Origin: an uncultured Gemmatimonadota bacterium
GTDB taxonomy: Bacteria > Blakebacterota > Blakebacteria > Blakebacterales > Blakebacteraceae
Reading direction: 5' to 3'
NCBI GenBank assembly: GCA_964576115.1
Contig: CAZNUA010000019.1
Span: 1 to 63,550, forward strand
Length of the DNA: 63,550 nt
This document shows positions 19,787-57,409 of this stretch, piece by piece. Below the pieces are notes generated by a model. That model ran no database searches and was not told the DNA's origin. It worked only from the letters and a program-made list of their open reading frames with translations. Position 1 is the first letter of the stretch; each line of letters opens with the position of its first letter. Both the position numbers and the translations under genes were made by a program.

Positions 19787-19787
19787 T

Positions 19788-23010: not shown

Positions 23011-23053
23011 TGGTACTCCCCGTTCGGTGCCTGAAGGCGGCGGTTGCCGGCGT

Positions 23054-24079: not shown

Positions 24080-24085
24080 CCGGAC

Positions 24086-24646
24086 TTACCGCCGGGCGGG
24101 GCTGTCGTCCCCCGCGTTCATCAGTTCGATGACCCGGGGCGTCAGGTCGTGGACCGGACTGGCGTAAACGATTCCGCCAGAGGCGGCATCGAAAATGTAA
24201 TCCCAGCCCTCGTCGGTGCCGACCTCTTCGAGAACCTCGTTGACGCGGGCGATGATCGGCGCCATCAGCTCCTGGTTGCGCTGATAGGCCTGCCCTTCCT
24301 GGCCCCAGATCCGGTCGATGAACTGTTGATACTCGGTGTACTTCTGCTGCAGCTGGGCGGTGAGCTGGGTCCGCCGTTCCTGGCTCATGGCCATGCTCTG
24401 CCGCTCGAGCTCGTTGTTGAGCTGTTCGACCTCTGACTGCAGAGCCGTCGCCTGGCGCTCCCAGACCTGATTCTCGGTATTGAAGGTTGCCTGGGCTTCC
24501 TGGGTGCCGGGATAGGCACCGATCACCGCCTGGGAGTCGATGAACCCGAGCCTCGGCCCTTCGTCCTGCGGGAGCAGAGTCGCTCCGGCCAGAAGGGCGA
24601 AGAGAAAACCCCCGAAAACGCCCGCTGTGACTGACTTGTGCATCAT
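24086..24646 (-). CDS. skp: OmpH/Skp periplasmic chaperone
   Basis: GAGGAGG RBS, signal peptide, 'LGFIDSQ', coiled coil, 'WDYIFD...IVYA...DLT'; lies between bamA and lpxD. Confidence 0.9.
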   Translation of the reverse strand: MMHKSVTAGVFGGFLFALLAGATLLPQDEGPRLGFIDSQAVIGAYPGTQEAQATFNTENQVWERQATALQSEVEQLNNELERQSMAMSQERRTQLTAQLQQKYTEYQQFIDRIWGQEGQAYQRNQELMAPIIARVNEVLEEVGTDEGWDYIFDAASGGIVYASPVHDLTPRVIELMNAGDDSPARR

Positions 24647-24704
24647 CTGCCTCCTCGTCGGACGGCACTGTCGGCTTCCGGCTTTGCATCCGGGCCGAGG
24701 TCCG

Positions 24705-27113
24705 CTAGTAGAACTGGGCTCCGAACTGGAAGTGCGGGATCCACCGGCCCTTGCGCCGCCCGTTCTCAAAGTGATCGAAGCCGTAGGCGAAGTCAAATCC
24801 GATGAGGCCCACCATGGGGGTGAACATCCGCAGGCCGAAGCCGACCGAACGGCGCAGATCGAAGGGGTCGGTATCGTTCAGATCGAGCCAGGCGTTCCCC
24901 GCATCGGCGAAGACCAGGCCGTAGATCATCTGCTCGGGAGCCAGGGGGAAAGTGTACTCCATGGTGAAGATCAGCAGGGACTGCCCGCCGATCTCCAGCC
25001 CGTCCTGATCGAGCGGACCCACCCGGCGGTTCTCGTAGCCCCTGATCTGGCCGTCGAAACTGGTTCCGCCGGGCAGGTATTTCTCGTTGAAGGGAATGAA
25101 ACCGCCCTGCCCGTAGCCCCGGTACGGCTCGACCAGCCCGGCCCGGAGCTTCAAAGCCATGATTACATTGGCCCAGGTCGGGAAGTAAAAAGACTGGTTG
25201 AGATCCCATTTCAGGTACTGCTCGTCTCCCCCCAGCGGTCCGCCGGAGATCTCGGTCCGCAGGGTGTTGACCGAGCCCCGGGTGGGGAACTCGGGCCGGT
25301 CGCGGGAATCGCGGTAGATGGTGAAGGACAGGGACGAGTTGCGGATCGGCCAGTCCCACTGGCGCAGGTCGTAGGCCGGGCTGGGATTGTATTTGGGATC
25401 GAAGTCGTAGAAGTTGGTGTCCTCGAGGCGGTAACCGAAGTTGATCCGGAAGTAGTCGTCGGGCCAGCGCAGGCGTCGTCCCAGCTGGGCCGTAAAACCC
25501 TCGCGGCGCTGCTTGTAGTAGATGTTGTAGAAGTACTCGCTACGATAGACGCTGGCGCCCACCAGGGTGGGCGTGTTGAAGAGCCACGGTTCGGTGAAGC
25601 CGACCAGGATGGTGCGCCGGATCCGCCCGAAGTCCCAGTTGAACTGCAGCTCCTGGCCGTTCCCGAAGAGATTGGGCAGTTGCAGCCCGATGTTGCCCAC
25701 GATGCCGTCCCGCTCGCTGTAGCCCGCGCCCATGATGGCCTGTCCCGTGGGACGTTCGGCGACCTTGATGGTCACGTCGAGGTTCCCCTCGGCGTTGGGC
25801 TGGGGGGGTGGATCGAGCTCGACGTTGGAGAAATAGTTCAGCGCCATGACCTCGCGCATCGAGCGCTGGAAAAGGGAACTGGAGAAACGGTTACCCGGTT
25901 TGAGGAGCACCTCGCGCCGGATCACGTGTTCCTTGGTGCGGGTGTTGCCGGTGATGAAGATGTGGGCCACGTTGGCCGGCTCGCCCTCGGTGAAATACGC
26001 GGTGATGTTGACGATCCGGTTATCGGGTCCGGTATAGCTCGGGATGGGGTTGTAATTGGCGTAGACGTAGCCCTCTTCCATGTAGAGGGTCTGGATATTT
26101 ATCAGGCTCTGGACGATCTCGGTTTCGTTGTATGGTCCCCCCTCGGTGACCGTGATGGCGTTCTCGAGATCACGCTCGTCGAAGAACTCGTATCCCTTCT
26201 CGATGCCCTCGATCGTGAAGGTGCCCAGGGTGTACTGCTCCCCCTCATCAACCGTGAAGTAGAGAGTCATGTTGCGGCCGCTCTCGTCATACCCCAGGCT
26301 GTCGGTCACGACCCGGGCGTCGAGGTGGCCCGCTTCGGCATAGCGGTCGGCGATGTTGTCTTTGTCCTCTTCGATGGTCCGCTGGTTGTATTCCCCGCGG
26401 CTGAAGAAGAGAAAACCGGTCCCGGTTGTCATGGCGGCCCGGATCTGACGGTCGCTCAGAATCTCGTTGCCGTAGACCTCGATCGCCCTGATACCCACCT
26501 TGGGCCCCTCGTCGACCCGCACGATCAGGTTCGAGGCGGTGGAATCGCCGGCGACATCGAGCGTCTCGAACTCCACCTCGGCCCGCAAGTAGCCCTCGTT
26601 GCGGTACTTGCCCAGGATCCGCTCCCGGGCCAGCGAGATGTTGTCGGGTCCCAGCCACATGCTCTCGTTGATGCGGCCGGCATTCATCAGATCGGTCCGC
26701 TTCAGCTTGTCGTTGCCGCGGAAGGTGACCGTGCCCAGGCGGGGTTTCTCTTCCACCTCGATGATCACGACTATCCGGTCGGGTCCGAGCTCCTCGCCCC
26801 AGATCCGGATGTCGGAGAAGGCATCGATCAGCCAGAGCTGGCTGATCGCCCGGCTGATGACCTCGCCGAACTCGGTCGAGAGGTAGCTCTGACCCTCCAC
26901 GATCGCCGAGCTGAGCGTGATCAGTTCGTCCTGCACGGCGACGTTGCCCTCGACCCTGAGCTCGGACACCGTGACCGTCTGTGGCGATCCCACCCCCTGG
27001 GCGAAGATCGGACGGGCCCGGGGGGTAAAGAGAACCGCGGCCAGGGCCGTTACGATTATCAGGGCGGATCGGGGACCGATCCGGTACGATATGCGTTCAA
27101 TGGAGTTCTTCAT
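24705..27113 (-). CDS. bamA: Outer membrane protein assembly factor BamA
   Basis: POTRA repeats, 'GNTRTKEHVIRRE', 'FTEPW', 'IRGY', C-terminal 'FQFGAQFY'. Confidence 0.95.
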   Translation of the reverse strand: MKNSIERISYRIGPRSALIIVTALAAVLFTPRARPIFAQGVGSPQTVTVSELRVEGNVAVQDELITLSSAIVEGQSYLSTEFGEVISRAISQLWLIDAFSDIRIWGEELGPDRIVVIIEVEEKPRLGTVTFRGNDKLKRTDLMNAGRINESMWLGPDNISLARERILGKYRNEGYLRAEVEFETLDVAGDSTASNLIVRVDEGPKVGIRAIEVYGNEILSDRQIRAAMTTGTGFLFFSRGEYNQRTIEEDKDNIADRYAEAGHLDARVVTDSLGYDESGRNMTLYFTVDEGEQYTLGTFTIEGIEKGYEFFDERDLENAITVTEGGPYNETEIVQSLINIQTLYMEEGYVYANYNPIPSYTGPDNRIVNITAYFTEGEPANVAHIFITGNTRTKEHVIRREVLLKPGNRFSSSLFQRSMREVMALNYFSNVELDPPPQPNAEGNLDVTIKVAERPTGQAIMGAGYSERDGIVGNIGLQLPNLFGNGQELQFNWDFGRIRRTILVGFTEPWLFNTPTLVGASVYRSEYFYNIYYKQRREGFTAQLGRRLRWPDDYFRINFGYRLEDTNFYDFDPKYNPSPAYDLRQWDWPIRNSSLSFTIYRDSRDRPEFPTRGSVNTLRTEISGGPLGGDEQYLKWDLNQSFYFPTWANVIMALKLRAGLVEPYRGYGQGGFIPFNEKYLPGGTSFDGQIRGYENRRVGPLDQDGLEIGGQSLLIFTMEYTFPLAPEQMIYGLVFADAGNAWLDLNDTDPFDLRRSVGFGLRMFTPMVGLIGFDFAYGFDHFENGRRKGRWIPHFQFGAQFY

Positions 27114-35472: not shown

Positions 35473-36282
35473 TCAGGGCTCCTGGGTGTAGTCGAGCTCG
35501 GAACCGAGCAGGGAGTGCGGAATCAGGTAAATGACCAGGGTCAGGATCGAGGCCGCGAGCACCGGAGTGCGGGCCGGCCGGTTCGTGAGAACGGCGCGGA
35601 GCGCCCAGGCCCAGACGATCACGCTGATCAGGGTCTTGTTGTCGGTCAGATCCCAGCCCAGGGGAATGCCGGTCCACAGTTCGCCGAAGGCGTAGTGCTG
35701 CATGATCGGACCGAAGATCATACCGCCGGCAACGAGGATGGCGAAGGTCCAGATCGTCAGCCGTTTGACGTTGCCGCGCCGCAGCAGGGCCTCGATACCG
35801 GTCCGGGTGCTGAAGAGCATGGCGGTGAACATGAGCAGGACATGGATCAGGAGAACGGTCGGGGGGACCGCCCCCTTGAAACGGGTGGTCACATAACCGT
35901 CGGCGGGTACGGTGACGGTTTCGTCCCCGGCGGTGAGGATGATCCGGTAGTCGAGCTTGCCGGCCGGCGGCTGGTGGGGCAAAGCACCCTGGAGTTCGTC
36001 CGCCTCGCGGACCAGGGGGATCTCCCGCCACTGCTCCCCGGTATCGTGACGGCGCCAGAGGAGAGTGCCGGCGATCTCACCGGTGGGAACGGTCAGGACG
36101 ACCGGCTGGTCCCCCTCACCGTCGAAGGTGCGGTCGAGACGGAAGTTCAGCTCCCGGCCGGCCAGCCCGGTCGTGCCGCTGTACTCCCAGGTCGGTCCGG
36201 TCAGCCGCTGGTAGACAGCCGAACTCAGCGTGATGACCAGGGCGATCGCCCAGAGCAGGAACGTCCGCACCCCACCCTTCAT
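35473..36282 (-). CDS. Membrane protein, hypothetical (N-terminal TM, soluble domain, C-terminal TMs)
   Basis: 269-aa ORF starting 1 nt after the clpC stop; alternating hydrophobic and soluble architecture. Confidence 0.75.
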   Translation of the reverse strand: MKGGVRTFLLWAIALVITLSSAVYQRLTGPTWEYSGTTGLAGRELNFRLDRTFDGEGDQPVVLTVPTGEIAGTLLWRRHDTGEQWREIPLVREADELQGALPHQPPAGKLDYRIILTAGDETVTVPADGYVTTRFKGAVPPTVLLIHVLLMFTAMLFSTRTGIEALLRRGNVKRLTIWTFAILVAGGMIFGPIMQHYAFGELWTGIPLGWDLTDNKTLISVIVWAWALRAVLTNRPARTPVLAASILTLVIYLIPHSLLGSELDYTQEP

Positions 36283-36283: not shown

Positions 36284-38758
36284 TCAGGCGTCGCTGCCGC
36301 CGTTGCCGCTGCCGGTGGGCAGCGGCGCTTCAGCCGCCCGGCTGGCCGTGAAAACGAGATCGTCCCCCTTGCGGCTGACCTTGATCTCCTGCCCCTCTTC
36401 GATCGTGCCGCGGATGATCTCCTCGCTCAGGGGATCCTCGAGCAGTTTCTGGATCGTGCGGCGCAGGGGCCGCGCGCCGTAGGCGGGATCGAAGCCCTTT
36501 TCCGCGATCAACTCCTTGGCCGGGCCGGTCAGGGTCAGGCGCAGCTTGCGCTCGCCCATGCGGTTCTCGAGCTCGAGCAGCATCAGCTCGATGATCTGGT
36601 CGATCTCTTCGCGTCCCAGCTTGTGGAAGACCACCACTTCGTCGAGGCGGTTCATGAACTCGGGGTTGAAGATCTTCTTGGTCTCCTCGACCACCTTCTC
36701 CTTGAGTTTCTCGTAGTTGACATTCGGATCTTCGGGCTGGAAGCCGAGCCCGCGGCCCTTCTCCAGATCCCTCGTACCGATGTTGGAGGTCATGATCAGG
36801 ATGGTGTTGCGGAAGTTTACCTTGCGGCCCAGCCCGTCGGTGAGGTGACCGTCGTCGAGCACCTGCAGCAGGATGTTGAAGACTTCCGGGTGGGCCTTCT
36901 CGATCTCGTCGAGCAGGATGACCGAATAGGGTTTGCGGCGTACCTTTTCTGTGATCTGCCCGCCCTCTTCATAGCCCACGTAGCCCGGCGGCGAACCGAT
37001 CAAACGCGAGACGCTGAATTTCTCCATGTACTCGCTCATGTCGACCCGCACCAGCGCCTCTTCGTCGTCGAAGAGGAAGGCCGCCAGGGCCCGGGCGGTC
37101 TCGGTCTTGCCGACCCCGGTCGGGCCCAGGAAGACGAAACTCCCGATGGGCCGGTTGGGATCCTTCAGGCCGGCCCGGGTGCGCTGGATGGCCCGCGAGA
37201 CGGCCCGGATGGCTTCTGTCTGACCGATGACCCGCTTGCCGAGCTCGGCCTCCATGTTGAGCAGCTTCTCCGATTCGGTACGGGCCAGACGGAAGAGCGG
37301 AATGCCGGTCATGCCCGAGACGACTTCAGCCACGTCGTTCTCGGTCACGTAGACCTTGGTCTTCTGGATCGAGGCTTCCCAGTCGCGTTTGGCGTCTTCG
37401 AGTTCCTCGCGGGTCCTCCGCTCGCGGTCGCGCAGTTCGGCCGCCGATTCGAACTCCTGGTTCTTGACCGCCCCCTCCTTGGCCTCGCGCACGTCCTTCA
37501 GGCGCTCTTCGACCTCCCTGATCTCGGGCGGGAAAGTGTACTTCTTCAGGTGCACCCGGCTCCCGGTCTCGTCGATCACATCGATGGCCTTGTCGGGTAG
37601 AAAGCGGTCGGAAATGTAACGGTCGGCCAGTTGCACGGCGATGTCGATGGCCTCGTCTGTGATGATGACCTGATGGTGCTCCTCATACCGCGAGCGCAGG
37701 CCCTTGAGGATGTCGACTGTTTCCTCGGGCGTGGGGGGATCGACCATGACGGTCTGGAAGCGCCGCTCCAGGGCCCCGTCCTTTTCGATCGTCTTGCGGT
37801 ACTCGTCCAGGGTGGTGGCCCCGATGCACTGCAGCTCGCCGCGCGAAAGAGCCGGCTTGAACATGTTGCTGGCGTCCAGCGTGCCCTCGGCCGAACCGGC
37901 CCCGACGATGGTATGCAACTCGTCGATGAAGATGATGATGTTTTTCGATGCCCGCAGTTCGGCCATGACCGTCTTCAGACGCTCCTCGAACTGGCCCCGG
38001 AACTTGGTGCCGGCCACCAGCGAACCCATGTCGATCGAAATGACCCGCTTGTCTTCGAGCACCTTGGGCACCGAGCGATCGATGATCTTCTGGGCCAGGC
38101 CCTCCACAATGGCTGTCTTGCCCACTCCCGGCTCCCCGATCAGGGCCGGGTTGTTTTTCTTGCGGCGGCTCAGGATCTGGGCGATCCGCTCGATCTCGCC
38201 CTCCCGACCGATGGTCGGATCCAGCTCGCCCCGCTCGGCCAGCTGGGTCAGGTCGCGGCCGAAATGATCGAGGAAGGGGGTCTTCGACTTGCCCGGTTTG
38301 ATGTCGAGTCTCTCCGAGCCCTCCTCGCTACCCACCTTCATGATCTCGTCTTTGATCATCTTGTAGTTCACGCCGAAGGCGGAGAGGATCTGCGAGGCGG
38401 AACCGTCCTTGTCCTTGACCAGAGCCAGCAGAAGGTGTTCGGTGCCGACGAATTTGCTCTTCAGGGCCCGGGCCTCATAGGCGGCGATCTCGAGCACCTG
38501 CTTGGCGCGCGGCGTGAAGGGTACCTGGCCGATGGTCATCGAACCGCCCACGGTGGCGGTGGCGTCCTCGATCGACTGCCGCACCTCGTCGAGGTCGAGG
38601 CCGAGGTTCTCGAGCACGTTTACGGCTACACCTTCGCCGTCACGGATGATGCCGAGCAGGAAATGCTCGGTGCCGATATAGTCGTGTCCGAGCCGGGCGG
38701 ATTCCTCCCTGGCCAGCTGCATGACGCGTTTCACGCGGTCGGTGAACATGTCATTCAT
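36284..38758 (-). CDS. clpC: ATP-dependent Clp protease ATP-binding subunit ClpC
   Basis: Two Clp-N repeats (GTEH), NBD1 'GEPGVGKT', short UVR M-domain, NBD2 'GPTGVGKTE', ClpP-docking 'LGF' loop. Confidence 0.96.
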
Positions 38759-38777: not shown

Positions 38778-39854
38778 TCACGCCAGACTGCTCCGGACCA
38801 GGTCGGCCCGCAGAACATCGCGCTCGCTCGGATTGAGAACCCGACCCTCGCGTCGCTCCAGATGAGCGGGTTGGACGAGGATCGTTAGTACGTCTAACTT
38901 CTCTTTTTCGACGTCCGACACAAGCCCCATGTTCACGCCAAAGCGGACGGCACTGAGCAGGTTCATCCCCTCCCGCAGGGCCAGGATACGCGCGCTCCTC
39001 AGGGTGGCCAGAGCCCGGTGGACCTTGTCCTCGACCTGCAGGCGCGCCTCGCGGGTCAGCGTGTCGCGGGCCTCGAGCTCGTATTCCACCAGCTTGCGAC
39101 CGGCGCTGAAGAGGGTGTTGATGATGTCCTCTTCCGACCGCCCCAGGGTGAGCTGATTGGCGATACGGAAGAGGTTGCCGAAAACGGCCGAACCCTCTCC
39201 GAAAACGCCCCTGACTTCCATCCCGTACCGGGTGATACGTCGCAGAACGTCCTCGGCCTCGTCGGTCAGCACCAGTGCCGGCAGGTGGGCCAGAATACTG
39301 GCGCGCAGACCTGTCCCCGCTGCGGTGGGGCTGACCGTAAGGTAACCGAAATCGGGGCTGAATGCGAACGGGAGTGTGTCACCGAGGGCATCGTCGACAG
39401 CGTCGATCCGTTCCCAGGCCAGGCCCGGCTCGAAACCCGACATGGTGCAGGCCAGGCGCAGGTGGTCGCCCTCGTTCAGACCCGCCACCAGCGCTTCGTC
39501 GGCGCTGAAAGCCACCCCGGCGGGGTGCCCGCTCTCGGCCAGTCCCACCCCGATCATAAACCGCTCCACCAGCAGGCGGCGGTCGCTCCAGACCAGATCC
39601 TCGAGCGCCGCCCGGGCCCGGACGGCGAAAGCCTCACTGCGGTCCAGGGCTTCGGCCATACGGCCGCGGTTTTCGCGATTGGCGGTCTCATCGGCCCGGT
39701 GCGGGAACACCGTCGCCCGCAGGTTGCGGGCCAGGCGGACCCGGGTGGAGAGAATGACTCCCTCGCCGGGATCATCTCCCGAAGCCGGGGCGAGGAGCCA
39801 GCCGGGAGGCCGGGTGCTCAGCTCCTGCAGGGTATTCTCGAAACCGGCCCCCAT
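38778..39854 (-). CDS. mcsB: McsB-family protein arginine kinase homolog with altered active-site motifs
   Basis: 'STRVRLARNL', 'NEGDHLR', 'GYLTVSPTAAGTGLRAS..HLPAL', 'RGVFGEGS', 'NQLTLG.SEE', 'QPAHL'; between mcsA and clpC. Confidence 0.9.
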   Translation of the reverse strand: MGAGFENTLQELSTRPPGWLLAPASGDDPGEGVILSTRVRLARNLRATVFPHRADETANRENRGRMAEALDRSEAFAVRARAALEDLVWSDRRLLVERFMIGVGLAESGHPAGVAFSADEALVAGLNEGDHLRLACTMSGFEPGLAWERIDAVDDALGDTLPFAFSPDFGYLTVSPTAAGTGLRASILAHLPALVLTDEAEDVLRRITRYGMEVRGVFGEGSAVFGNLFRIANQLTLGRSEEDIINTLFSAGRKLVEYELEARDTLTREARLQVEDKVHRALATLRSARILALREGMNLLSAVRFGVNMGLVSDVEKEKLDVLTILVQPAHLERREGRVLNPSERDVLRADLVRSSLA

Positions 39855-39855: not shown

Positions 39856-40398
39856 TCACTCCGCTCCCTCACCCGTTCCGGCGGTCGGGCCCGGATCGTC
39901 GAGCCGGCGGAGTCGGTCGCGCAGCTCGGCGGCCTCTTCGAAGGCCTCGCTGCGCACGGCTTCCTCGAGCGCGGAACGCAGCAGGGCGGGATCCTCCTCC
40001 GCAGGCAGGGCGTGCGCTCCGGTGTAGGTCTTGCCCAGATGTTCTTCGGAACCGTGAACCCGCCGCAGAATCTCGCGCAGGGGTTCAGCGAAGGACGCAT
40101 AGCAGGTCGGACAGCCCAGGAGCCCCGACTCCCGGAACTCGCGGAAGGTCCAGCCGCAGCGGGGGCAGGCGACCGCATCGAGGGGGTGACCGCCCTCGGG
40201 CACCTGGTTCTCTTCGGTGATCTGCTCGAGGATGTCGCGGAAGATCAGATCGACGTGCAGGGGATTCTTGAGGACCGGTGTGGGTACGCCCCGCTTTTCG
40301 ACACACCCCTGGCAGAGATGGAGCACCTCTTTCCTGCCCTCCCTGACCTCGGTGTAGATGACGGTGGCGACACGCTGGCCGCAATCCTGGCAGAGCAT
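39856..40398 (-). CDS. mcsA: McsA (zinc-finger plus UVR domain) kinase activator
   Basis: Four CxxC motifs, 'HGSEEHLGK', C-terminal UVR 'EAFEEAAELRD'. Confidence 0.9.
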   Translation of the reverse strand: MLCQDCGQRVATVIYTEVREGRKEVLHLCQGCVEKRGVPTPVLKNPLHVDLIFRDILEQITEENQVPEGGHPLDAVACPRCGWTFREFRESGLLGCPTCYASFAEPLREILRRVHGSEEHLGKTYTGAHALPAEEDPALLRSALEEAVRSEAFEEAAELRDRLRRLDDPGPTAGTGEGAE

Positions 40399-40423
40399 CG
40401 GGTATTTCACCCCCGTGGCGTGA

Positions 40424-41150
<727 letters not shown>

Positions 41151-41158
<8 letters not shown>

Positions 41159-42401
41159 CACGGATCGCCTCCACGGGTACGAGCGAGGCCGCCCGGCGAG
41201 CCGGGTAGAGGCTGGCGGCGTAGCAGATGAGCAGGCTCACGGCCGTGATGAGCAGGAAGTCAAGCAGGCGCATGTCGATCGGTACGGCACTGATGAAATA
41301 CACATCGGGCGGAATCGAGATCAGCCGGAAGGTCTGCTGAGCCCAGCAGAAACCGTACCCCAGCACCAGACCGAGCACGGTCCCGATGACCCCCACGATC
41401 ATTCCCTGGGTGACGAAAACCCGCTGCATGGCCGCCCGGGTGGCGCCCATCGCCTTGAGGATGCCGATATCCTTCTTTTTCTCCAGGACCACCATGATCA
41501 GGGTCGAGACGATATTGAAAGCCGCCACCATGATGATCAGCCCCAGAATGATGAACATTGCCCACTTCTCGATGCTCATCCAGGCGAAGAGGTTCTTGTT
41601 CTGATCGATCCAGCTGATGATCCAGTAGGGATACTGCAGTTTGCTCTCGAGGCGTTTCTTGATCGTCCCGGCCCGCCACATGTCATCGAGCCGGATCGAG
41701 AGGCCGGTGACCCGGTCGCCCATGCCCAGCAGATCCTGGGCGGCCCCCAGACCCAGGTAGACATAGGCGATATCGTACTCGTAGAGCCCCGTCTTGAAGA
41801 CCCCGGTGATCTTGACATTGCGCATCCGGACCGAGGGCATCATCGGCAGCGTGCCGCCGGTGCTCTCCATCTCGGGAATGACGATCGCCACCCCCTCCTG
41901 CCCTACCCCGCCGATCTGCTGGCTGAGATCGTAGCCGGCGATCATGCCGTACAGATTGACCCGCCCCTTCGTGAAGATGCCGAAATCGATCGCCCCGTAG
42001 TGGATCTTGTCGGCCAGCCGGTAGACGGCATCGGCCGTGGCCGGATCGATGCCGCGGATGACGGCGGTGGTGCGCTGGGCGCCCTGGATCAGACCTTCGG
42101 CTTCGATGAAGGGGGTCACCCCGATCACCCCTTCCACGGCGGCGATGGTATCCATCAGTGCGGGCCACGCTTCGCCCGCCACACCGCGGTTGTGAAAGGT
42201 AACGATCCGCAGGTGGGCGTCGGTGTCGAGGATCTTCTGCCGGACCTCGGTCTCGAGGCCGTTCATGGTGCTCAGCACGATCGCCAGGGCGGCCACCCCG
42301 ATCGCCACGCCGCCGACCGAAAAATAGGTGATGATCGAGATGAACCGGGTGCGGCGGCGCGAGCGCAGGTACCGGCCGGCTATGAAGCTCTCGTATCGCA
42401 C
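41151..42401 (-). CDS. lolC: Lipoprotein-releasing ABC transporter permease (LolC/E)
   Basis: 'FISII...GVAIGVAAL..VLS.MNG', 'VAAFNIVSTL...EKKKDIGILKAMGA', 'YPARRAA...P.EAIR.E'. Confidence 0.9.
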
Positions 42402-42414: not shown

Positions 42415-44088
42415 TCAGGTTACGGCCCCCGGGTCCTGCCCGGCGTCGGGGTCGTCCCGATTCTCCGGAGCCCCGGATTCGTCCGCAGCGGCGGCTCCCG
42501 ATCCGCCCTCTCCCCCCTCGGGACGCATGACGGGGAAGAGGATCACGTCGCGGATCGAGGGGGTGCCGGTCAGGAGCATGACCACCCGATCGATCCCCAC
42601 CCCGAGCCCGCCGGTCGGGGGCATACCGAACTCCAGAGCCCGCACGAAGTCGGCGTCGAACCGCTGGGCTTCCTCGTCCCCGAGTTCGAGCAGGGCCAGC
42701 TGCGAGCGGAAACGCTCCCGCTGGTCGTCGGGATCGTTCAGCTCGCTGAAAGCGTTGGCAAACTCCATCCCGGCGATCACCAGCTCGAACCGCTCGGTCA
42801 GACCCGGCCTGCCTCTGTGACGCTTGGCCAGGGGACTGAGTTCCAGCGGGTGGTCGATCACGAAGACCGGCTGCAGCAGATGGGGCTCGGCCCAGTGGCC
42901 GAAGGCTGCGTCCAGCAGTGCGGCCCGCCCCAGAGCGTTCTCGACCTCGGCCCCGTCGGCCGTGAGCGAGGCCCGCAGCTCATCGTCATTCATCTCGAGG
43001 ACCGCCGGACCGCCGTGGTCGCCGATCAGGTCGGGCCATGTCCGCCGCGGCCACGGCGGGCTCAGATCGATCTCGACTCCCTCGAAGGTGACGGTGGCTT
43101 CGCCCTCGAGAACGGTGTCGATCCAGTGGCTGAACATCGCTTCGACCAGGGTCATGATGTCGCCGTAATCGGCAAACGCCTGGTAGAGTTCGAGCATCGT
43201 GAACTCGGGATTGTGGCGCTTGTCGAGACCCTCGTTGCGGAAGATCCGGCCGATTTCGTAGACCTTCTCCAGCCCCCCCACGATCAACCGCTTGTGGTGC
43301 AGTTCGATCGCAATGCGCAGGTACATCTCGATGTCCAGCGCGTTGTGCAGGGTGGTGAAGGGACGGGCGCTGGCCCCGCCGTGCAGGGTCTGCAGGATCG
43401 GTGTTTCGACCTCGAGAAACCCGCGGTCGTCGAGAAAAGCGCGCAGTTCGGTGACGATCCGGGCCCGCCGGCGGAAGACCTCGCGCACCCCGGGATTGAC
43501 GAAGAGATCGACGTAGCGCTGGCGGTAGCGCAGTTCCTTGTCGGCGAAGGCGTAGTGGGTCGTTTCCTCGCCCGTGTCGGGATCGGTCGTCGTCTTCGGG
43601 GTGGGAATCGGCCGTAGCGACTTGGCCAGCACCGCCAGGCTCTCCACGGCCAGGGTCCTTTCACCGGTGCGGGTGACCATGAGAGTGCCCTCGACTCCGA
43701 TCCAGTCCCCCAGATCGAGCAGCTCGCCGACCGCCCAGGCCTGATCCCCGACCGTGTCCTTTTTCACATACAGCTGCAGACTGCCGGTGGCGTCGAGCAG
43801 ATCGGTGAAGAAAGTCTTGCCGTGCCGGCGCATGGTCATGAGCCGGCCCGCCAGGCGCAGGCGGGGAGGATCCTCCCCCTCCCCGGCCGGGCCACAGAGA
43901 TCGTCCCACTGCGTCAGCACTTCGCCGACACTGTGGGTCCGCTCCCAACGGTAGGGCCACGGTTCGATCCCCAGGGCGGCGAGTTCCTGCAGGTGCTGCC
44001 GCCGGGCGGCGACGTACTGGTCCTCCTCGGCTGCCCGGTCGCCGCCCGGGGTCGGTGACGGTTCCCGCTCTCGGTTGGATTCGGTCAC
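42415..44088 (-). CDS. lysS: Lysine--tRNA ligase (class II)
   Basis: 'RYRQRYVDL', 'GGASARPF.T.HNAL', 'FRNEG', 'HNPEFTMLE', 'ANAFSELNDP', 'GMPPTGGLG.GIDR'. Confidence 0.97.
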   Translation of the reverse strand: MTESNREREPSPTPGGDRAAEEDQYVAARRQHLQELAALGIEPWPYRWERTHSVGEVLTQWDDLCGPAGEGEDPPRLRLAGRLMTMRRHGKTFFTDLLDATGSLQLYVKKDTVGDQAWAVGELLDLGDWIGVEGTLMVTRTGERTLAVESLAVLAKSLRPIPTPKTTTDPDTGEETTHYAFADKELRYRQRYVDLFVNPGVREVFRRRARIVTELRAFLDDRGFLEVETPILQTLHGGASARPFTTLHNALDIEMYLRIAIELHHKRLIVGGLEKVYEIGRIFRNEGLDKRHNPEFTMLELYQAFADYGDIMTLVEAMFSHWIDTVLEGEATVTFEGVEIDLSPPWPRRTWPDLIGDHGGPAVLEMNDDELRASLTADGAEVENALGRAALLDAAFGHWAEPHLLQPVFVIDHPLELSPLAKRHRGRPGLTERFELVIAGMEFANAFSELNDPDDQRERFRSQLALLELGDEEAQRFDADFVRALEFGMPPTGGLGVGIDRVVMLLTGTPSIRDVILFPVMRPEGGEGGSGAAAADESGAPENRDDPDAGQDPGAVT

Positions 44089-44182: not shown

Positions 44183-44836
44183 TCAAATCAATATATCGGG
44201 TCGCCGCCGCACCACCTCGGTGATTCCCGCATTGTGCAGATCGCTGCGCACCACCCGCCACCGCCGGTCGAAACGCAGAAAGGAAAGCAGCAGCAGGATG
44301 GTACCCTGATGACTGACGACCAGTCGCTCGCGGCTGACCGGAGATCCTTCTCCGGCCGGGGGACGCCACTGCAGCAGTGCCCGCCAGGCCCGCACCACCC
44401 GTCCCCGGGCCGCATAGACGGTTTCCTCGATATCGTAGAGGGGCAGGAACTGCCGCGCCATACTCCGCAGGAACCACGACCGCAGGGGCCGCGGATCGCG
44501 ATGCTTGTACAGCGGTTCATGGGCGGTCGGCACGAACTCGCGGAAACCCGCCATCGAGACGATCGGCAGACCGAGTCCCTCGGCCAGGATATCGGCGCTC
44601 GCGATCGCCCGGGGCAGCGTGGAAGCATGCACCGCGGCCAGGTTGTGATCGGCGAAGAACTCGACCAGAGCCGCAATCTGGCGATGTCCCTCCCCGGTCA
44701 TCTCGCGATCGTCCGAACCCAGCACGATGCGGTTGTACTCGGCCAGGGTCAGCAGGCGCCGGCGGCTGTACATGTTGTCTCGGGTCTGCCCGTGGCGTAC
44801 GACCCAGACCCGATCGACCAGTCCGGCACTGCGCAT
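44183..44836 (-). CDS. Histidine phosphatase (phosphoglycerate mutase-like) family protein
   Basis: 'VVRHGQT', 'STLPRA', 'FRE', 'VVSHQG', 'NAGIT'. Confidence 0.8.
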   Translation of the reverse strand: MRSAGLVDRVWVVRHGQTRDNMYSRRRLLTLAEYNRIVLGSDDREMTGEGHRQIAALVEFFADHNLAAVHASTLPRAIASADILAEGLGLPIVSMAGFREFVPTAHEPLYKHRDPRPLRSWFLRSMARQFLPLYDIEETVYAARGRVVRAWRALLQWRPPAGEGSPVSRERLVVSHQGTILLLLSFLRFDRRWRVVRSDLHNAGITEVVRRRPDILI

Positions 44837-46784: not shown

Positions 46785-49523
46785 TTACATCCTATTTCCA
46801 TTCTCCCTTTCCGTCTCCCCTTGCGGTGCTTTCCAGAAATCGGAAAGGGCCGGTGTCCCGGCCGCAACCGGACCAGTATAGAGAGCGGCATTGAAGAGCA
46901 CCCGGAAGCTGCCGAAAGGCTGACCTCGCCAGTGGGGCCGGAAACCGATCAGAATCACATGCCCCTCGCCGTGGACCGCATCCAGGGCGGCGGCCCGCCC
47001 CTGCAGGTGTTCCTCGCCCAGCAGGTAACCCGAGAGCAGGGGCGAGCCCTCCTCGGCATAGACCGCCAGGGCCCGGCCGCGGAAGTCTTCCGTGACGCTG
47101 AAGACCGGACTTCGGCCGATGAAAACCGGAGCCTCTTCGGGCATGCCCGCCATGACCGGGTGACTGGGATCGGTGCGGATCTCGACGATCGAGCTGCCCA
47201 GGAACAGCTCGTCGCGATCCACCCCCCGGGTCACGTCGGTCACCGGCAGGGCCAGTTCGTCCAGGGCGAAAGCGCACGAGGCATTGATGCAGACCAGGGT
47301 GCCCCCTTCGCGCACGAAGCGATCGATCGCCCGCACTCCCGCCGCCTCGATCCCACCGGTATAGCGGGCCGGCATCGTCCCGGTGGCCTGCCCCTCGATG
47401 ATCGAGGAGGAACGCTGGTCGGCCAGGATGAGCACGTCGAAACGCCGGTGCAGTTCGCCGGTCCTGATCTCGGCCGGCCGCACCCGCTCGAATTCGAAGC
47501 CGTACATCTCGAGCAGCCAGCGGGTCCAGCCCTCATCGCTCGATCCGCTCCAGGGGGCGTAGAGACCGATCCGGGGCCGGGTGACGGCCCCGGAAGCCGT
47601 GCGGCGCCGCTCGCCCCCCAGATGCAGGGTAATCTCGAGACCGCCCAGGTTGCGCAACGGCACCAGGTAGCGCCCCGCGCTGCCCGCCTCCCCCCCCTGC
47701 CCCGGCGCACCCGGCTCGTAGAACACCCGCCCGCCGGATCTGGACCAGACCGCGTTGATGGCCCGGAAGGCGTTATTGTGGGCCGGATCGAGAGCCAGGT
47801 AATCCCCCGTACCCTCGAGCCGGTCCATGACCGGCACGATCCCGGCCGCCACCGGGTGGGTATCGAAACCGGCGTCGGGGGGAGTGTCGAAAGGTGCTCC
47901 CTCGCCGGTATCCGATACCGGCGTCCCATCGACCGGCCGCAGGGCCGCACGCAGCTCGGCTCCCACCGGTTCGGTGGCCGCGATCACCCGCACCCCCATC
48001 TGCAGCGGCAGGGTCCACCCCGACACATCGTAGGGCTGATCCATCGGGCCGTCGGGAAAGGGCCGGATGTCGGGATACTCCTGCACCTCGAAGAGCTGGC
48101 GCACGAAGTTGGCGAATGGCTGCTCCATCGGAATGACCCAGGTACCGGCCGGATGTCGCAGCCCCTGGAAGGTGACTTCGCGGCTCAACTGGTGGATCTC
48201 GATGCCGTTGAAGGCCAGCCGGCGCAGCAGCTCCACCGGAGCCGCCGGATCGCGCTGATCCTGCGGGATGAAGTAGGCGAAGGGCGGTTCTTCCCCGTAG
48301 CGGGCGATAATATCGCGCCCGGCCTGGTAGCGGTTGTAGAGCAGATCGAAACGATACTTGGCGGCCACGTCGAGAACCGCCATCGAGACCGTGTGCATGT
48401 AGGCTACGGCGTCGCCCAGGCGCCACCATCCCCCCTGCCAGGGGCTGGGATAGAGAGATTCGGGGCGCAGGTCCCGCATCTGTTCGGGGAAATCGCGCAC
48501 GGTGTAGAAATGCGGCGTGGCATAGCGGTACAGCCCGGTCTCGGTCAGGAAAGAGACCACGTTGTGGAAGGAGTTGGCGTGATCCATGAAGCCGGGGTAC
48601 CAGTCGTCGAAGCCGGTCCCCATGTGGGTGGCGCCGCGCTGACCGCGCTCTTCGAGCGCCTGCGACATGGCCATGCCGACCAGGTTGACGGTACGCCACA
48701 TCAGGGGATGCACGTGGGGACTGATCGGCTCGGCGAAGGGGGGGATCCAGATCCTGGTCGGGAAGGGTGCGGTCTGGTGATGGTTGTAGAGGATCTGCGG
48801 CTCCCAGGAGCGCAGCACCCGGGTGATGGCGCGCGATTCGATCATGTTGATCATGTAACCGTCGCGGTTGTTGTCGTGCCCCACGTACTCCTGATACAGG
48901 CGGGGCATGCCCGAGACCTCATAGGGCGTGCCCAGGTTCGACTCATACCACTCGGCCAGCCAGTTCATGCCGTCGGGATTCAGGGTCGGCCAGAGGATGA
49001 AGATGACGTTATCGAGGATGGCGGCGATCTCGGGATCGGCATCGCCGGTGACCAGATCGTAGGCCAGCTGCAGGGTGTGCTGGTGCCCGGCGCACTCGCT
49101 CGAGTGCATGCCGCCGTCAATGTGCACGATCGCCCGGCCCTCTTCGGCCAGCCGGCGGGCCTCGTTGTCGGTCAGCCCCTCGGGATGGGCCAGGCGCAGG
49201 CTGATCTCGCGGTAGCGCTCCACCTCGCGCAGGTTCTCGGCCGAGGAGATGAGTGCGATCACCATCGGCAGACCGTTGGTGGTCGTGCCCACCTCGCGCA
49301 GCTCGAGCCGGTCGGTGGCGGCATCGAGTCGGCGCAGGTACTCGAGCGCAGAGTCGAAACCGGCCAGACAGAAATCGGCTCCCGGGCGGAAGCCCAGAAC
49401 CGACTCGGGGCTCGGCACGGGCCCCTGAGCCCGGACCGGGATGACCGGCAGAGCTGGAAGGGTTGCGAGAGCTGTGAGAACCAGCAGCAGGCACATGACG
49501 GCGGGGCGACGGAGCGGTCTCAT
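46785..49523 (-). CDS. Secreted M14-family zinc carboxypeptidase-like protein
   Basis: Signal peptide, 'GGMHSSE', 'NPDG', 'GHDNNRD'; paralog of 9127-11913. Confidence 0.87.
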   Translation of the reverse strand: MRPLRRPAVMCLLLVLTALATLPALPVIPVRAQGPVPSPESVLGFRPGADFCLAGFDSALEYLRRLDAATDRLELREVGTTTNGLPMVIALISSAENLREVERYREISLRLAHPEGLTDNEARRLAEEGRAIVHIDGGMHSSECAGHQHTLQLAYDLVTGDADPEIAAILDNVIFILWPTLNPDGMNWLAEWYESNLGTPYEVSGMPRLYQEYVGHDNNRDGYMINMIESRAITRVLRSWEPQILYNHHQTAPFPTRIWIPPFAEPISPHVHPLMWRTVNLVGMAMSQALEERGQRGATHMGTGFDDWYPGFMDHANSFHNVVSFLTETGLYRYATPHFYTVRDFPEQMRDLRPESLYPSPWQGGWWRLGDAVAYMHTVSMAVLDVAAKYRFDLLYNRYQAGRDIIARYGEEPPFAYFIPQDQRDPAAPVELLRRLAFNGIEIHQLSREVTFQGLRHPAGTWVIPMEQPFANFVRQLFEVQEYPDIRPFPDGPMDQPYDVSGWTLPLQMGVRVIAATEPVGAELRAALRPVDGTPVSDTGEGAPFDTPPDAGFDTHPVAAGIVPVMDRLEGTGDYLALDPAHNNAFRAINAVWSRSGGRVFYEPGAPGQGGEAGSAGRYLVPLRNLGGLEITLHLGGERRRTASGAVTRPRIGLYAPWSGSSDEGWTRWLLEMYGFEFERVRPAEIRTGELHRRFDVLILADQRSSSIIEGQATGTMPARYTGGIEAAGVRAIDRFVREGGTLVCINASCAFALDELALPVTDVTRGVDRDELFLGSSIVEIRTDPSHPVMAGMPEEAPVFIGRSPVFSVTEDFRGRALAVYAEEGSPLLSGYLLGEEHLQGRAAALDAVHGEGHVILIGFRPHWRGQPFGSFRVLFNAALYTGPVAAGTPALSDFWKAPQGETERENGNRM

Positions 49524-57145: not shown

Positions 57146-57409
57146 TCAGCGGTAGACCTCCCGGCGCTGGCCGATCTTCACGATCCGGACCCGCCGGTTC
57201 TCATCGTCGACTGCATACACGATGCGGAAGTCCCCCTGCCTGACACGATAGAGATCAGTCCTGCCGGAGAGTTTTTCACATCCGCGGGGCCGGGGAGAAT
57301 CGGCCAGCTGTCCGATCCTCTTTACGATCCGACGGCGGTCGTCTCGGAAACGCAGTTTCTCGAGTTCTCCGGCGGCCGAGGCTTTGATCGTGAGCTCATA
57401 TCTTTCCAC
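57146..57409 (-). CDS. Type II TA toxin, RelE/ParE family
   Basis: 87-aa basic protein 'PRPRGCEKLSG...YRVRQGDFRIVY.VDD....V.IVKIG.RREVYR'. Confidence 0.9.
   Translation of the reverse strand: MERYELTIKASAAGELEKLRFRDDRRRIVKRIGQLADSPRPRGCEKLSGRTDLYRVRQGDFRIVYAVDDENRRVRIVKIGQRREVYR

What the first reader, a model, noticed from the sequence alone, without database searches (positions are those of the whole stretch)
38778..39854. McsB homolog with both signature catalytic motifs altered: candidate arginine pseudokinase in an intact mcsA-mcsB-clpC operon
Seen: the guanidino-kinase 'NEEDH' motif reads NEGDH (AAC GAG GGC GAC CAC, about 39463-39477). The 'CP[TS]N' motif reads SPTA (AGC CCC ACC GCA, about 39321-39332). 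The ORF is otherwise full length, with the GEGS motif and C-terminal domain present, and mcsA and clpC look intact. Established: in Bacillus/Geobacillus McsB the second Glu of NEEDH (E121) and the CPTN Cys (C167) are required for kinase activity, and Cys-to-Ser is a standard kinase-dead mutation. Inference: this lineage may keep McsB as a non-catalytic ClpC adaptor or scaffold, i.e. a pArg-independent variant of Clp proteostasis in a diderm. No ctsR precedes mcsA.
Basis: partly seen in the sequence, partly recalled or inferred. Interest (0 to 1): 0.72.

Follow-up and report, generated by a model that had tools for sequence, protein, structure and literature searches.

The report
McsB homolog with remodelled catalytic pocket
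A gene that normally encodes a protein-arginine kinase feeding the ClpC protease has lost three key catalytic residues here but is still kept intact by selection, so it probably acts as a non-catalytic or much weakened partner of ClpC.

Summary
Window 38778-39854 (-) encodes a full-length, confidently folding McsB homolog. The second Glu of NEEDH is Gly (G129), the CPTN Cys is Ser (S175) and the CPTN Asn is Ala (A178). GEGS, the phosphate-binding arginines and the C-terminal domain are kept.

This is neither error nor recent decay. Two other database proteins (79% and 73% identical) share NEGDH/SPT[AS], with synonymous codon differences at those residues. dN/dS against the one relative with DNA is 0.21, like the neighbouring genes. 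Gly at this column occurs in 0 of 373 other family members examined.

The gene is the positional orthologue of a canonical mcsB, in a conserved lysS-lolE-lolD-mcsA-mcsB-clpC block of Gemmatimonadota/Zixibacteria-like diderms. Cys-to-Ser is older. It marks a clade of 15 sampled sequences, most of which keep NEEDH and Asn, so Ser alone does not prove a dead enzyme. The NEGDH triad went further, departing at 13 of 74 family-conserved columns against at most 3 in control triads.

Best reading (about 0.5): a selected pseudokinase or strongly attenuated kinase serving as a McsA-bound ClpC adaptor. "pArg-independent proteostasis" is untested, because pArg-reader residues persist and the rest of the genome was not visible.

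The parts
38778..39854 (-). mcsB-like gene, 358 aa (P0001): ATP:guanido phosphotransferase catalytic domain plus C-terminal dimerisation domain
   Evidence: PF00217, E 1e-45; McsB PDB chains, E about 2e-66; pLDDT 96.9; TM 0.90-0.92 to 6fh3_A and 6tv6. All NCBIfam McsB equivalog models score below their cut-offs, e.g. 331.6 against 385.
39462..39476 (-). NEGDH (residues 127-131). G129 replaces the second Glu of NEEDH (Bs E121; arginine kinase Glu225)
   Evidence: The Gly codon is GGC here and GGG in L001. Gly at this column occurs in 0 of 264 plus 0 of 109 other family members.
39321..39332 (-). SPTA (residues 175-178). S175 replaces the catalytic Cys (Bs C167; arginine kinase Cys271). A178 replaces the Asn (arginine kinase Asn274)
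   Evidence: The Ser codon is AGC here and AGT in L001, but TCA or TCC in the SPTN relatives L002-L005.
39189..39200 (-). GEGS (residues 219-222). E220 is retained and corresponds to arginine kinase Glu314. R215, five residues before it, corresponds to Arg309
   Evidence: residue spacing.
38808..38822 (-). R345, D346 and R349: counterparts of the B. subtilis McsB pArg receptor site R337, D338, R341; all retained
   Evidence: Alignment; residue roles from PMC8370763; invariant or nearly invariant in A1. The fourth site residue, Bs S285, aligns with L293 and is not kept.
39856..40410 (-). mcsA-like gene. By homology the start is more likely the ATG at 40398 (MLCQDC...). It has two Zn-finger pairs and a UVR coiled coil. 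Its stop lies one base before the mcsB ATG
   Evidence: At the L2-loop position of Bs R96-F97 it reads L-L.
36284..38758 (-). clpC, 824 aa, starting 19 bases after mcsB
   Evidence: The N-domain is 143-147 of 150 identical to the ClpC of loci L002-L006, and 144 of 144 identical to the L001 fragment, which breaks off at the contig end.
40424..44088 (-). lolD (40424-41161), lolE/C (41151-42401) and lysS (42415-44088), co-directional with gaps of 13 bases or overlaps. They form the conserved upstream part of the block
   Evidence: The same order is seen in L001, L004 and L006.

Best explanation
This is the positional orthologue of mcsB in a Gemmatimonadota/Zixibacteria-like diderm. Its phospho-acceptor (guanidinium) pocket has been remodelled.

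Shown: of the four residues that in arginine kinase hydrogen-bond the guanidinium or the transferred phosphoryl (Glu225, Cys271, Asn274, Glu314), three are replaced (G129, S175, A178). Five more family-invariant columns have also changed. The fold, the phosphate-binding arginines, Glu220, the dimerisation domain, mcsA and clpC are kept. The gene evolves under purifying selection.

Inferred: the protein no longer phosphorylates arginine efficiently. It is retained for the kinase-independent part of McsB function. As a McsA-bound, probably still nucleotide-binding dimer, it recognises misfolded or aggregated clients, docks on the ClpC N-domain, and so activates or targets ClpC (with ClpP via the LGF loop). 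This matches what the B. subtilis C167S mutant can do at reduced efficiency.

The loss came in two steps. Cys-to-Ser occurred at the base of a wider clade, together with loss of the Arg in the McsA L2 loop. Glu-to-Gly, Asn-to-Ala/Ser and the other changes occurred on the long stem of the three-member NEGDH group.
For: Motif changes and their homology.

Rarity: the second Glu is E in 145 of 148 representatives and the Cys is C in 143 of 148. Gly129 occurs in 0 of 264 and 0 of 109 others.

Not error or decay:
- P0004 (79%) and P0005/L001 (73%) share NEGDH/SPT[AS].
- Codons differ synonymously between window and L001 at G129, S175, P176, T177, A178 and R230.
- NG86 dN/dS is 0.21 (dS 0.88), against mcsA 0.18, lolD 0.21 and lolE 0.19. 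By part it is 0.24 for the kinase domain, 0.16 for the dimerisation domain and 0.08 for family-conserved columns.

Relaxed or changed constraint specifically at the catalytic site:
- In the NEGDH triad, 9 of 74 family-conserved columns vary and 4 are fixed to a non-consensus residue. These include the 99%-conserved arginines R184 (K in P0005) and R215 (K in P0004), plus M125, Q135, N178 and S232.
- Control triads of 68-82% identity showed a mean of 0.51 varying columns, a maximum of 3, and none fixed to non-consensus (5000 sampled of 50,754).
- The stem branch is the longest inner branch within the 23-sequence clade that holds these relatives (0.53-0.58 changes per column).

Orthology: the same M14-HIT-prfB-His_Phos_1-lysS-lolE-lolD-mcsA-mcsB-clpC order holds around the canonical NEEDH/CPAN gene of L006, the NDDDH/SPTN gene of L004 and the NEGDH genes.

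Fold intact.

Precedent: McsB C167S is kinase-inactive, yet it activates the ClpC ATPase to about 50%, supports disaggregation, binds the ClpC N-domain and localises to aggregates.

Continued McsA partnership: there is a 1-base gap between mcsA and mcsB, mcsA dN/dS is 0.18, and a triad-specific pair exists. McsB R53 (= Bs R44) goes with an acidic residue at the McsA position of Bs Q90, which contacts R44 in the crystal structure.
Against: - No assay exists.
- The window protein itself keeps every phosphate-binding Arg (R38, R40, R43, R133, R184, R215), E220, N127, E128, D130, H131 and T177. The family-conserved columns have dN/dS 0.08. That is more conservation than a pure scaffold obviously needs.
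- The derived residues G102, G129, S175 and R230 are themselves held fixed. A rough neutral expectation for all four staying unchanged between window and L001 is about 5e-4, from the per-codon values. This fits a new selected configuration as well as a dead one.
- McsA, known as a kinase activator, is retained.
- The pArg-receptor residues of McsB and the ClpC N-domain pArg-pocket residues are retained. However, the ClpC pockets also stabilise the resting state, and ClpC is 92-95% identical across all these lineages whatever the McsB state.
- Cys-to-Ser in creatine kinase leaves 4% activity.
- dN/dS rests on a single pair of DNA sequences.
- A second, canonical mcsB elsewhere in the genome cannot be excluded.
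Confidence: 0.5

Rival explanations
1. It is still a protein arginine kinase, only slower or more tightly McsA-dependent. Ser175 hydrogen-bonds the guanidinium in place of the thiolate. Glu220 and Glu128 carry the remaining polarisation. The Ser form may have been favoured because it cannot be oxidised.
For: - All phosphate-binding arginines, E220 and D130/H131 are kept in the window protein.
- Family-conserved columns have dN/dS 0.08.
- McsA and the pArg-reader residues are kept.
- The wider Ser clade keeps NEEDH and Asn, which suggests Ser is compatible with function there.
- All 17 sampled departures in the query's clade are to Ser. Ser uses both AGY and TCN codon classes, which argues that Ser itself is selected.
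- CK-B C283S has 4% residual activity.
Against: - Three of the four guanidinium or phosphoryl contacts are gone at once.
- Gly129 is unique among 373 other sequences.
- In the sister sequences, two 99%-invariant arginines are Lys, and M125, Q135, N178 and S232 drift.
- B. subtilis C167S alone is reported as kinase-inactive.
- The McsA L2-loop Arg that contacts E121 in B. subtilis is Leu here.
Confidence: 0.25
2. It is a neofunctionalised ATP-dependent enzyme or reader. The pocket has been enlarged (S102G, M125G, E129G, N178A, S232A) and made more basic (Q230R). It therefore accepts something other than a cationic guanidinium: another acceptor group, or an anionic or phosphorylated ligand.
For: - Most replacements are to smaller residues, plus one new Arg.
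- G102, G129, S175 and R230 are fixed in all three members, with synonymous turnover at G129, S175 and R230 (the G102 codon is unchanged).
- The ATP-site residues are kept in the window protein.
- The orphan P0022 (NGTDH/SPAD) carries the same S102G and Q230R and was not placed with the triad.
Against: - Four of the eight changed columns vary among the three members, which looks like relaxation rather than a new precise site.
- The independence of P0022 is not established: the AU test of a joint clade gives p 0.083.
- I could not map the residues in 3D because no model coordinates are available.
- No candidate ligand is known.
Confidence: 0.12
3. It is a regulatory paralogue-like partner of a second, canonical McsB encoded elsewhere in the genome. 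It would act for example as a heterodimer partner or as a pArg reader through its retained receptor site.
For: The pArg receptor residues R345, D346 and R349 and the dimerisation domain are conserved (dimerisation-domain dN/dS 0.16). Canonical McsB is common in Gemmatimonadota (109 of 109).
Against: - The gene occupies the same syntenic slot as the canonical mcsB of L006, so it is the orthologue and not an extra copy.
- No second guanido-kinase domain lies in the 63.5-kb window.
Confidence: 0.08
4. It is a sequencing or assembly error, or a recently inactivated gene on its way to loss.
For: None beyond the unusual motifs.
Against: - Three independent database sequences share the state.
- The reading frame is intact, and the AF2 model is confident.
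- dN/dS is 0.21.
- Glu-to-Gly(GGC) and Asn-to-Ala(GCA) each need two base changes.
Confidence: 0.02

Closest known systems
McsB protein arginine kinase of Bacillus subtilis / Geobacillus stearothermophilus (PDB 6TV6, 8WTB, 6FH1-6FH3)
   Same: - Same two-domain architecture and fold (TM 0.90-0.92, 33-36% identity).
- Same operon partners, mcsA upstream and clpC downstream.
- Phosphate-binding arginines, GEGS Glu and three of the four pArg-receptor residues are conserved.
   Different: - E121 is Gly, C167 is Ser and N170 is Ala, and five more invariant columns have changed.
- The autophosphorylation sites R190 and R194 are Asp (alignment; for their role).
- There is no ctsR.
- The host is a diderm.
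- The protein scores below the NCBIfam equivalog cut-offs.
Laboratory mutant McsB C167S of B. subtilis (kinase-inactive adaptor)
   Same: It has Ser at the catalytic Cys. It shows that McsB can bind the ClpC N-domain, find aggregates and support ClpC disaggregation without kinase activity (passages of bioRxiv 10.1101/2022.09.15.508104).
   Different: That is a single engineered change with reduced fitness (about tenfold lower thermotolerance). Here the change is natural and ancient, comes with further pocket changes, and is maintained by selection.
Ser-type (NEEDH/SPTN) McsB homologs of Zixibacteria/Gemmatimonadota-like MAGs (P0006-P0015, P0017, P0123; L002-L005)
   Same: They are the nearest relatives (49-56% identity), with the same synteny, the same Cys-to-Ser change and the same Leu-Leu McsA L2 loop.
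   Different: - They keep the second acidic residue (E or D) and the Asn.
- They use TCN rather than AGY Ser codons.
- One subclade instead has GDGS together with S102D/E and Q230R.
McsAB orthologues of Chlamydia trachomatis and other Gram-negatives
   Same: mcsAB-like genes occur in a diderm that also has ClpC. Their activity is not characterised (PMC10128030 passages; PMC11046695: activity in Gram-negative homologs 'has never been identified').
   Different: In Chlamydia, mcsAB is separate from clpC. I did not examine their motifs.
Phosphagen kinases (arginine and creatine kinase) and their active-site mutants
   Same: They share the catalytic domain (PF00217). Glu225, Cys271, Glu314 and Asn274 have defined roles (PMC11075012 passages). 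C283S creatine kinase keeps 4% activity.
   Different: The window protein has no N-terminal small-substrate domain. McsA Z2 takes its place.

Membership tests
McsB protein arginine kinase | ATP:guanido phosphotransferase catalytic domain without the phosphagen-kinase N-domain, plus a C-terminal helical dimerisation domain | tested here: met
   PF00217 at E 1e-45. Full-length alignment to McsB PDB chains. AF2 pLDDT 96.9 and TM 0.90-0.92 to 6fh3_A and 6tv6.
McsB protein arginine kinase | NEEDH motif with the second Glu (Bs E121; arginine kinase Glu225) | tested here: not met
   The motif reads NEGDH, with G129. The residue is E in 145 of 148 representatives.
McsB protein arginine kinase | Catalytic Cys and Asn of CPTN (Bs C167, N170; arginine kinase Cys271, Asn274) | tested here: not met
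   The motif reads SPTA. The Cys is present in 143 of 148 representatives. The Asn is 98-99% conserved.
McsB protein arginine kinase | Second catalytic Glu (GEGS; arginine kinase Glu314) and the phosphate-binding arginines | tested here: met
   E220 and R38, R40, R43, R133, R184 and R215 are present in the window protein. In the two sister sequences, R184 or R215 is Lys.
McsB protein arginine kinase | Score above the curated equivalog cut-off of the NCBIfam McsB models | tested here: not met
   NF002194 scores 331.6 against 385. NF053707 scores 307.4 against 500. Three further models are also below cut-off.
McsB protein arginine kinase | pArg receptor site in the dimerisation domain (Bs R337, D338, R341, S285) | tested here: inconclusive
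   R345, D346 and R349 are kept. The S285 position is L293, with A292 next to it.
McsB protein arginine kinase | Arginine phosphorylation activity stimulated by McsA | not testable with these tools
   This needs a biochemical assay.
clpC operon of Firmicutes (ctsR-mcsA-mcsB-clpC) | mcsA directly upstream and clpC directly downstream of mcsB | tested here: met
   The gaps are 1 base and 19 bases. Domain content was checked.
clpC operon of Firmicutes (ctsR-mcsA-mcsB-clpC) | ctsR repressor gene and CtsR operator upstream | tested here: not met
   lolD lies upstream. No CtsR domain is found in the window. The operator pattern occurs at chance level only. The same lolD-mcsA junction is seen in L001, L004 and L006.
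Pseudoenzyme (pseudokinase) | Homolog of an active enzyme lacking residues needed for catalysis | tested here: met
   Three of the four acceptor or phosphoryl contacts are replaced.
Pseudoenzyme (pseudokinase) | Maintained by purifying selection, i.e. not a pseudogene | tested here: met
   dN/dS is 0.21-0.23, similar to the neighbouring genes. This comes from one sequence pair only.
Pseudoenzyme (pseudokinase) | Demonstrated lack of catalytic activity | not testable with these tools
   This needs an assay. Residual activity is plausible.

The most novel reading that the evidence does not exclude
The remodelled pocket is not a ruin but a new, selected site. It has five invariant residues shrunk, a new Arg230, and G102/G129/S175/R230 held fixed, while the ATP-binding arginines are kept. 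On this reading the lineage has turned McsB into an ATP-dependent enzyme or sensor with a different acceptor or ligand that still feeds ClpC. That would be a second kind of 'mark' or gate for Clp proteolysis in diderm bacteria. The orphan P0022, with the same S102G/Q230R and loss of Glu and Cys, may be an independent arrival at the same solution.
Probability: 0.12. Interest if true: 0.8.

Novelty: new variant of a known kind. Interest (0 to 1): 0.5.

Why it matters
McsB is the only known dedicated protein arginine kinase, and pArg is treated as the bacterial counterpart of a degradation tag. According to PMC11046695, almost all knowledge comes from Firmicutes, and the activity of Gram-negative homologs has never been identified.

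A natural, selected McsB lineage lacking the acceptor-site residues would show that the adaptor or regulator role of McsB towards ClpC can stand on its own in evolution. So far that role has been separated from the kinase role only by the C167S laboratory mutant.

It would also caution against annotating every PF00217/McsB-like gene as 'protein arginine kinase'. The wider Ser-for-Cys clade offers a ready-made series for asking which residues McsB catalysis really needs: canonical, then Ser only, then Ser plus Gly plus Ala.

My searches found no paper describing a McsB pseudokinase. Seven papers hold both words (six listed), and in the two I opened McsB occurs only in references or in passing. 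None of the 15 listed papers couples McsB with Gemmatimonadota or Zixibacteria.

Tried and rejected
It was never queued because the queue was full, so there is no result of any kind.

2. I entertained the idea that McsA supplies the missing Glu in trans. I dropped it on re-reading the contact list of PMC11046695. McsA R96, not Q90, contacts E121, and R96 is Leu here. An acidic residue at the Q90 position is common family-wide (E 25 and D 9 of 69).

3. Recurrence of Cys-to-Ser: the best trees need 3 changes, but the AU test does not reject one Ser clade (p 0.25). Joining P0022 to the NEGDH triad is disfavoured but not rejected (p 0.083).

4. P0022 (NGTDH/SPAD) has no relative closer than 53%, so its conservation cannot be judged.

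5. A CtsR operator search and promoter/terminator scans gave nothing above chance. GC content is even across the block, so nothing points to recent transfer.

6. Papers not held: Suskiewicz 2019. Searches for arginine kinase C271S/E225Q and McsB E121A/E121Q/E212A found nothing usable. The quantitative effect of the Glu mutation is therefore recalled, not read.

7. The search for related loci returned only 6 loci.

8. Unchecked:
- The rest of the source genome (ywlE, ctsR, clpP, a second mcsB) was not visible.
- Model coordinates are not exposed, so the 3D clustering of the eight changed residues was not measured.
- Supplementary figures of PMC11046695 (Fig. S1A, taxonomic spread) were not seen.
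Full report
**What is there**

Window 38778-39854 (-) encodes a 358-residue protein (P0001). Pfam places an ATP:guanido phosphotransferase catalytic domain at residues 82-260 (E 1e-45). phmmer against all PDB chains aligns residues 25-357 with the solved McsB protein arginine kinases of B. subtilis (8wtb, 6tv6; E about 2e-66) and G. stearothermophilus (6fh1; 5.6e-65). An AlphaFold2 model built on a 103-sequence alignment is very confident (pLDDT 96.9, pTM 0.93). It superposes on 6fh3_A and 6tv6 with TM 0.90-0.92. The protein is therefore a full-length, well-folded McsB homolog.

All five NCBIfam McsB equivalog models match, but below their curated cut-offs (best 331.6 against 385). NCBI names some relatives of this clade only 'ATP--guanido phosphotransferase'.

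**The motifs**

In the alignments, NEEDH reads NEGDH (residues 127-131, bases 39462-39476). CPTN reads SPTA (residues 175-178, bases 39321-39332). GEGS is kept (39189-39200).

Counting along the 8wtb chain, and checking against residue names given in PMC11046695 (Q160, R161, T165, S166, C167, P168), G129 corresponds to Bs E121, S175 to C167 and A178 to N170. By motif spacing these are Glu225, Cys271 and Asn274 of arginine kinase, and E220 and R215 are Glu314 and Arg309. In arginine kinase, Glu225, Glu314 and Cys271 hydrogen-bond and polarise the guanidinium, and Asn274 binds the transferred phosphoryl (PMC11075012, passages). Three of these four contacts are replaced here.

The phosphate-binding arginines (R38, R40, R43, R133, R184, R215), N127, E128, D130, H131 and T177 are kept. 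So are the C-terminal domain residues, including R345, D346 and R349, the counterparts of the B. subtilis pArg receptor site R337, D338 and R341. The fourth receptor residue, S285, is not kept (L293). The B. subtilis autophosphorylation sites R190 and R194 are Asp here.

**Is it more than chance or error?**

Among the best 148 representatives of 50%-identity clusters, out of 4891 hits, the second Glu is E in 145 and the Cys is C in 143. Gly at column 129 occurs in 0 of 264 other sequences I had fetched. It also occurs in 0 of 109 further, mostly Gemmatimonadota-labelled, homologs, which all read NEEDH/CPTN.

The two nearest database proteins share the state: P0004 (79% identity) reads NEGDH/SPTS and P0005 (73%) reads NEGDH/SPTA. 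P0005 is encoded on L001, a contig of an uncultured Gemmatimonadota MAG. There the codons for G129, S175, P176, T177, A178 and R230 all differ from the window's at synonymous positions. Nei-Gojobori dN/dS between window and L001 is:
- 0.21 for mcsB (dS 0.88)
- 0.18 for mcsA
- 0.21 for lolD
- 0.19 for lolE
- by part: 0.24 for the kinase domain, 0.16 for the dimerisation domain and 0.08 for family-conserved columns

This excludes sequencing error and recent decay. The estimate rests on one pair, and dS is high.

**Context**

The window comes from a diderm. It carries bamA, lpxD, a fused lpxC-fabZ, lpxA, lpxB, kdtA and lolDE. mcsA ends one base before the mcsB start. clpC starts 19 bases after mcsB. 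lysS, lolE and lolD precede mcsA with gaps of 13 bases or overlaps.

The same order, M14 peptidase - HIT - prfB - His_Phos_1 - lysS - lolE - lolD - mcsA - mcsB - clpC, is found in L006 (canonical NEEDH/CPAN) and in L004 (from the HIT gene onward; NDDDH/SPTN); the short L001 contig (NEGDH) holds it from His_Phos_1 onward. The variant gene is thus the positional orthologue of a canonical mcsB, not an extra copy.

There is no ctsR and no LMW phosphatase in the window, and no CtsR box above chance. mcsA is intact, with four CxxC motifs and a UVR domain, and aligns to B. subtilis McsA at E 5e-24. clpC is intact and has an LGF tripeptide at residue 671. I recall that ClpC carries its ClpP-docking loop at this position.

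ClpC is strikingly conserved. It is 92-95% identical over all aligned residues among L002-L006, and 143-147 of 150 N-domain residues are identical, with 144 of 144 in the L001 fragment. McsB is only about 50% identical across the same loci.

**Phylogeny**

In a 47-row and a careful 29-row maximum-likelihood tree, the window protein groups with P0004 and P0005 (100% support). The group sits on the longest inner branch of its 23-sequence clade (0.53-0.58 changes per column). It lies inside a 15-row clade (97-98%) in which every member has Ser for the catalytic Cys. That clade in turn lies inside a 23-row clade (100%) that also holds canonical CPTN members.

Cys-to-Ser is therefore older than Glu-to-Gly. 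Most Ser-clade members keep NEEDH (or NDDDH), the Asn and the arginines. Two more Ser forms, P0018 (SPTD) and the orphan P0022 (NGTDH/SPAD), fall outside the 15-row clade. However, a single origin of Ser is not rejected (AU p 0.25), nor is a joint clade of P0022 with the triad (p 0.083).

The NEGDH genes use AGY Ser codons, while L002-L005 use TCN. These classes are not connected by one base change. This points either to separate Cys-to-Ser events or to a codon switch under selection for Ser.

**Signature at the active site**

Of 74 columns conserved in at least 85% of the family, the NEGDH triad varies at 9 and is fixed to a non-consensus residue at 4. The varying columns include M125, Q135, N178, S232 and the 99%-invariant R184 and R215. 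The four fixed ones are G102, G129, S175 and R230. In 5000 control triads of similar divergence (sampled from 50,754), the mean number of varying columns was 0.51, the maximum was 3, and none was fixed to non-consensus. The controls come largely from one well-sampled clade, so they are not independent.

The pattern cuts two ways. Several formerly invariant catalytic columns now drift, which argues for loss of the ancestral chemistry. Four derived residues are held fixed while their codons turn over, which argues that the new configuration is itself under selection. The rough neutral chance of all four staying unchanged in the pair is about 5e-4.

**McsA co-variation**

In the B. subtilis McsA/McsB crystal structure, the three-residue L2 loop of McsA (R96-F97-G98) touches the catalytic loop, and R96 hydrogen-bonds T43 and E121.

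In this clade, the McsA partners of the two canonical McsB proteins have Arg at that position. These are L006 (same locus) and P0016/P0286 (paired by equal contig length). All nine partners of Ser-type McsB have Leu or Ile. This may be a single event, and Leu-Leu is common elsewhere in the family.

Within the NEGDH triad, McsB R53 (= Bs R44) and an acidic residue at the McsA position of Bs Q90 appear together. The two positions are in contact in B. subtilis. I take these as weak signs that McsA and McsB still work as a pair.

**Interpretation**

The best-supported reading is that this lineage keeps McsB for functions that do not need efficient arginine phosphorylation. There is direct precedent. 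B. subtilis McsB C167S is kinase-inactive, yet it stimulates the ClpC ATPase to about half the wild-type level, supports disaggregation, binds the ClpC N-domain and finds aggregates in vivo, at a fitness cost (bioRxiv 10.1101/2022.09.15.508104, passages).

I put this at about 0.5. The main rival (0.25) is an attenuated but real kinase. The ATP-site residues and E220 are kept, McsA is kept, pArg-reader residues persist in the McsB dimerisation domain, and creatine kinase C283S keeps 4% activity (PMC2265766). Retention of the ClpC pArg pockets (counterparts of Bs T7, E32 and E106) does not discriminate. These pockets also stabilise the ClpC resting state (PMC12583610), and ClpC barely changes across lineages with any McsB type.

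A neofunctionalised pocket (0.12) and a partner of an unseen canonical paralogue (0.08) remain open. Error or decay is excluded.

**What I could not do**

- No assay was possible.
- No access to the rest of the genome, so ywlE, ctsR, clpP and a second mcsB were not sought.
- DNA was available for only one NEGDH relative.
- No model coordinates were available for mapping the changed residues.
- The complex prediction never got into the queue.
- Suskiewicz 2019, Fuhrmann 2009 and Trentini 2016 were not readable. Statements about E121 mutants in McsB are recalled only (one search found no held paper).

**Verdict**

This is a real, rare, selected active-site variant of McsB in a diderm lineage. 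It is best filed as a new variant of a known kind: a candidate pseudokinase or attenuated kinase adaptor of ClpC. It is of moderate interest until an assay decides.

Noticed in passing
window 44183-44836 (-); L001 220-876; L004 4990-5793; L006 4926-5720: A histidine-phosphatase-superfamily gene (His_Phos_1; only weak, below-cut-off NCBIfam hits to ribazole phosphatase or dPGM) is kept between prfB and lysS. It lies three genes upstream of mcsA in all four loci, whatever the McsB type. Members of this superfamily can hydrolyse P-N bonds (recalled), so it is an untested candidate for a phosphoarginine or other phosphatase linked to the block.
   Followed up: partly
window 36284-38758 (-) and L001-L006: ClpC is 92-95% identical over all aligned residues, and 143-147 of 150 N-domain residues are identical across L002-L006; the 144-residue L001 fragment matches the window at all 144. 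McsB is only about 50% identical across the same loci, and third codon positions are only 52-73% identical. This is an unusually strong constraint on the N-domain.
   Followed up: partly
window 39330-39332; L001-L005 mcsB: The Ser that replaces the catalytic Cys is coded AGC or AGT in the NEGDH genes, but TCA or TCC in the SPTN relatives. The two codon classes are not one step apart. This suggests independent Cys-to-Ser events or a selected codon switch.
   Followed up: partly
window 40099-40116 (mcsA L2 loop region); P0273-P0287, L003-L006: The McsA L2-loop Arg (Bs R96, which contacts McsB E121 and T43) is Arg in the 2 partners of canonical McsB in this clade. It is Leu or Ile in all 9 partners of Ser-type McsB. 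Four of the pairs were inferred from equal contig length.
   Followed up: partly
P0008, P0010, P0011, P0013, P0014, P0015 (L002, L005 type): A six-member sub-clade of Ser-type McsB is altered at the GEGS motif: five members have Asp for its Glu (GDGS, GDGG, GDDA) and P0014 keeps the Glu (GEGA). All six also have S102D/E and Q230R. This is a second, different remodelling of the same pocket.
   Followed up: no
P0022 (database protein, 364 aa): An orphan homolog reads NGTDH/SPAD/GEGR and carries the same S102G and Q230R as the window's group. It has no relative above 53% identity. It is possibly an independent loss.
   Followed up: partly
window 21586-23010 (-): A single 474-aa ORF carries both LpxC and FabA/FabZ-like domains (a fused lpxC-fabZ). 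It lies within an lpxD / lpxC-fabZ / lpxA / oxidoreductase / lpxB / kdtA cluster next to bamA (17172-27113).
   Followed up: no
window 57146-57635 (-): An 87-aa ParE-family toxin ORF is overlapped at its start by a 79-aa ORF with no Pfam match. The two are likely a type II toxin-antitoxin pair.
   Followed up: no
window 9127-11913 (-) and 46785-49523 (-); L006 143-2893: Two large (912-928 aa) proteins have an N-terminal M14 carboxypeptidase domain. The second is part of the conserved block upstream of prfB.
   Followed up: no
window 35473-36282 (-): A 269-aa ORF with no Pfam or NCBIfam match starts directly after clpC, with high GC3. From reading the sequence it looks hydrophobic. It may be the last gene of the same transcription unit.
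   Followed up: no
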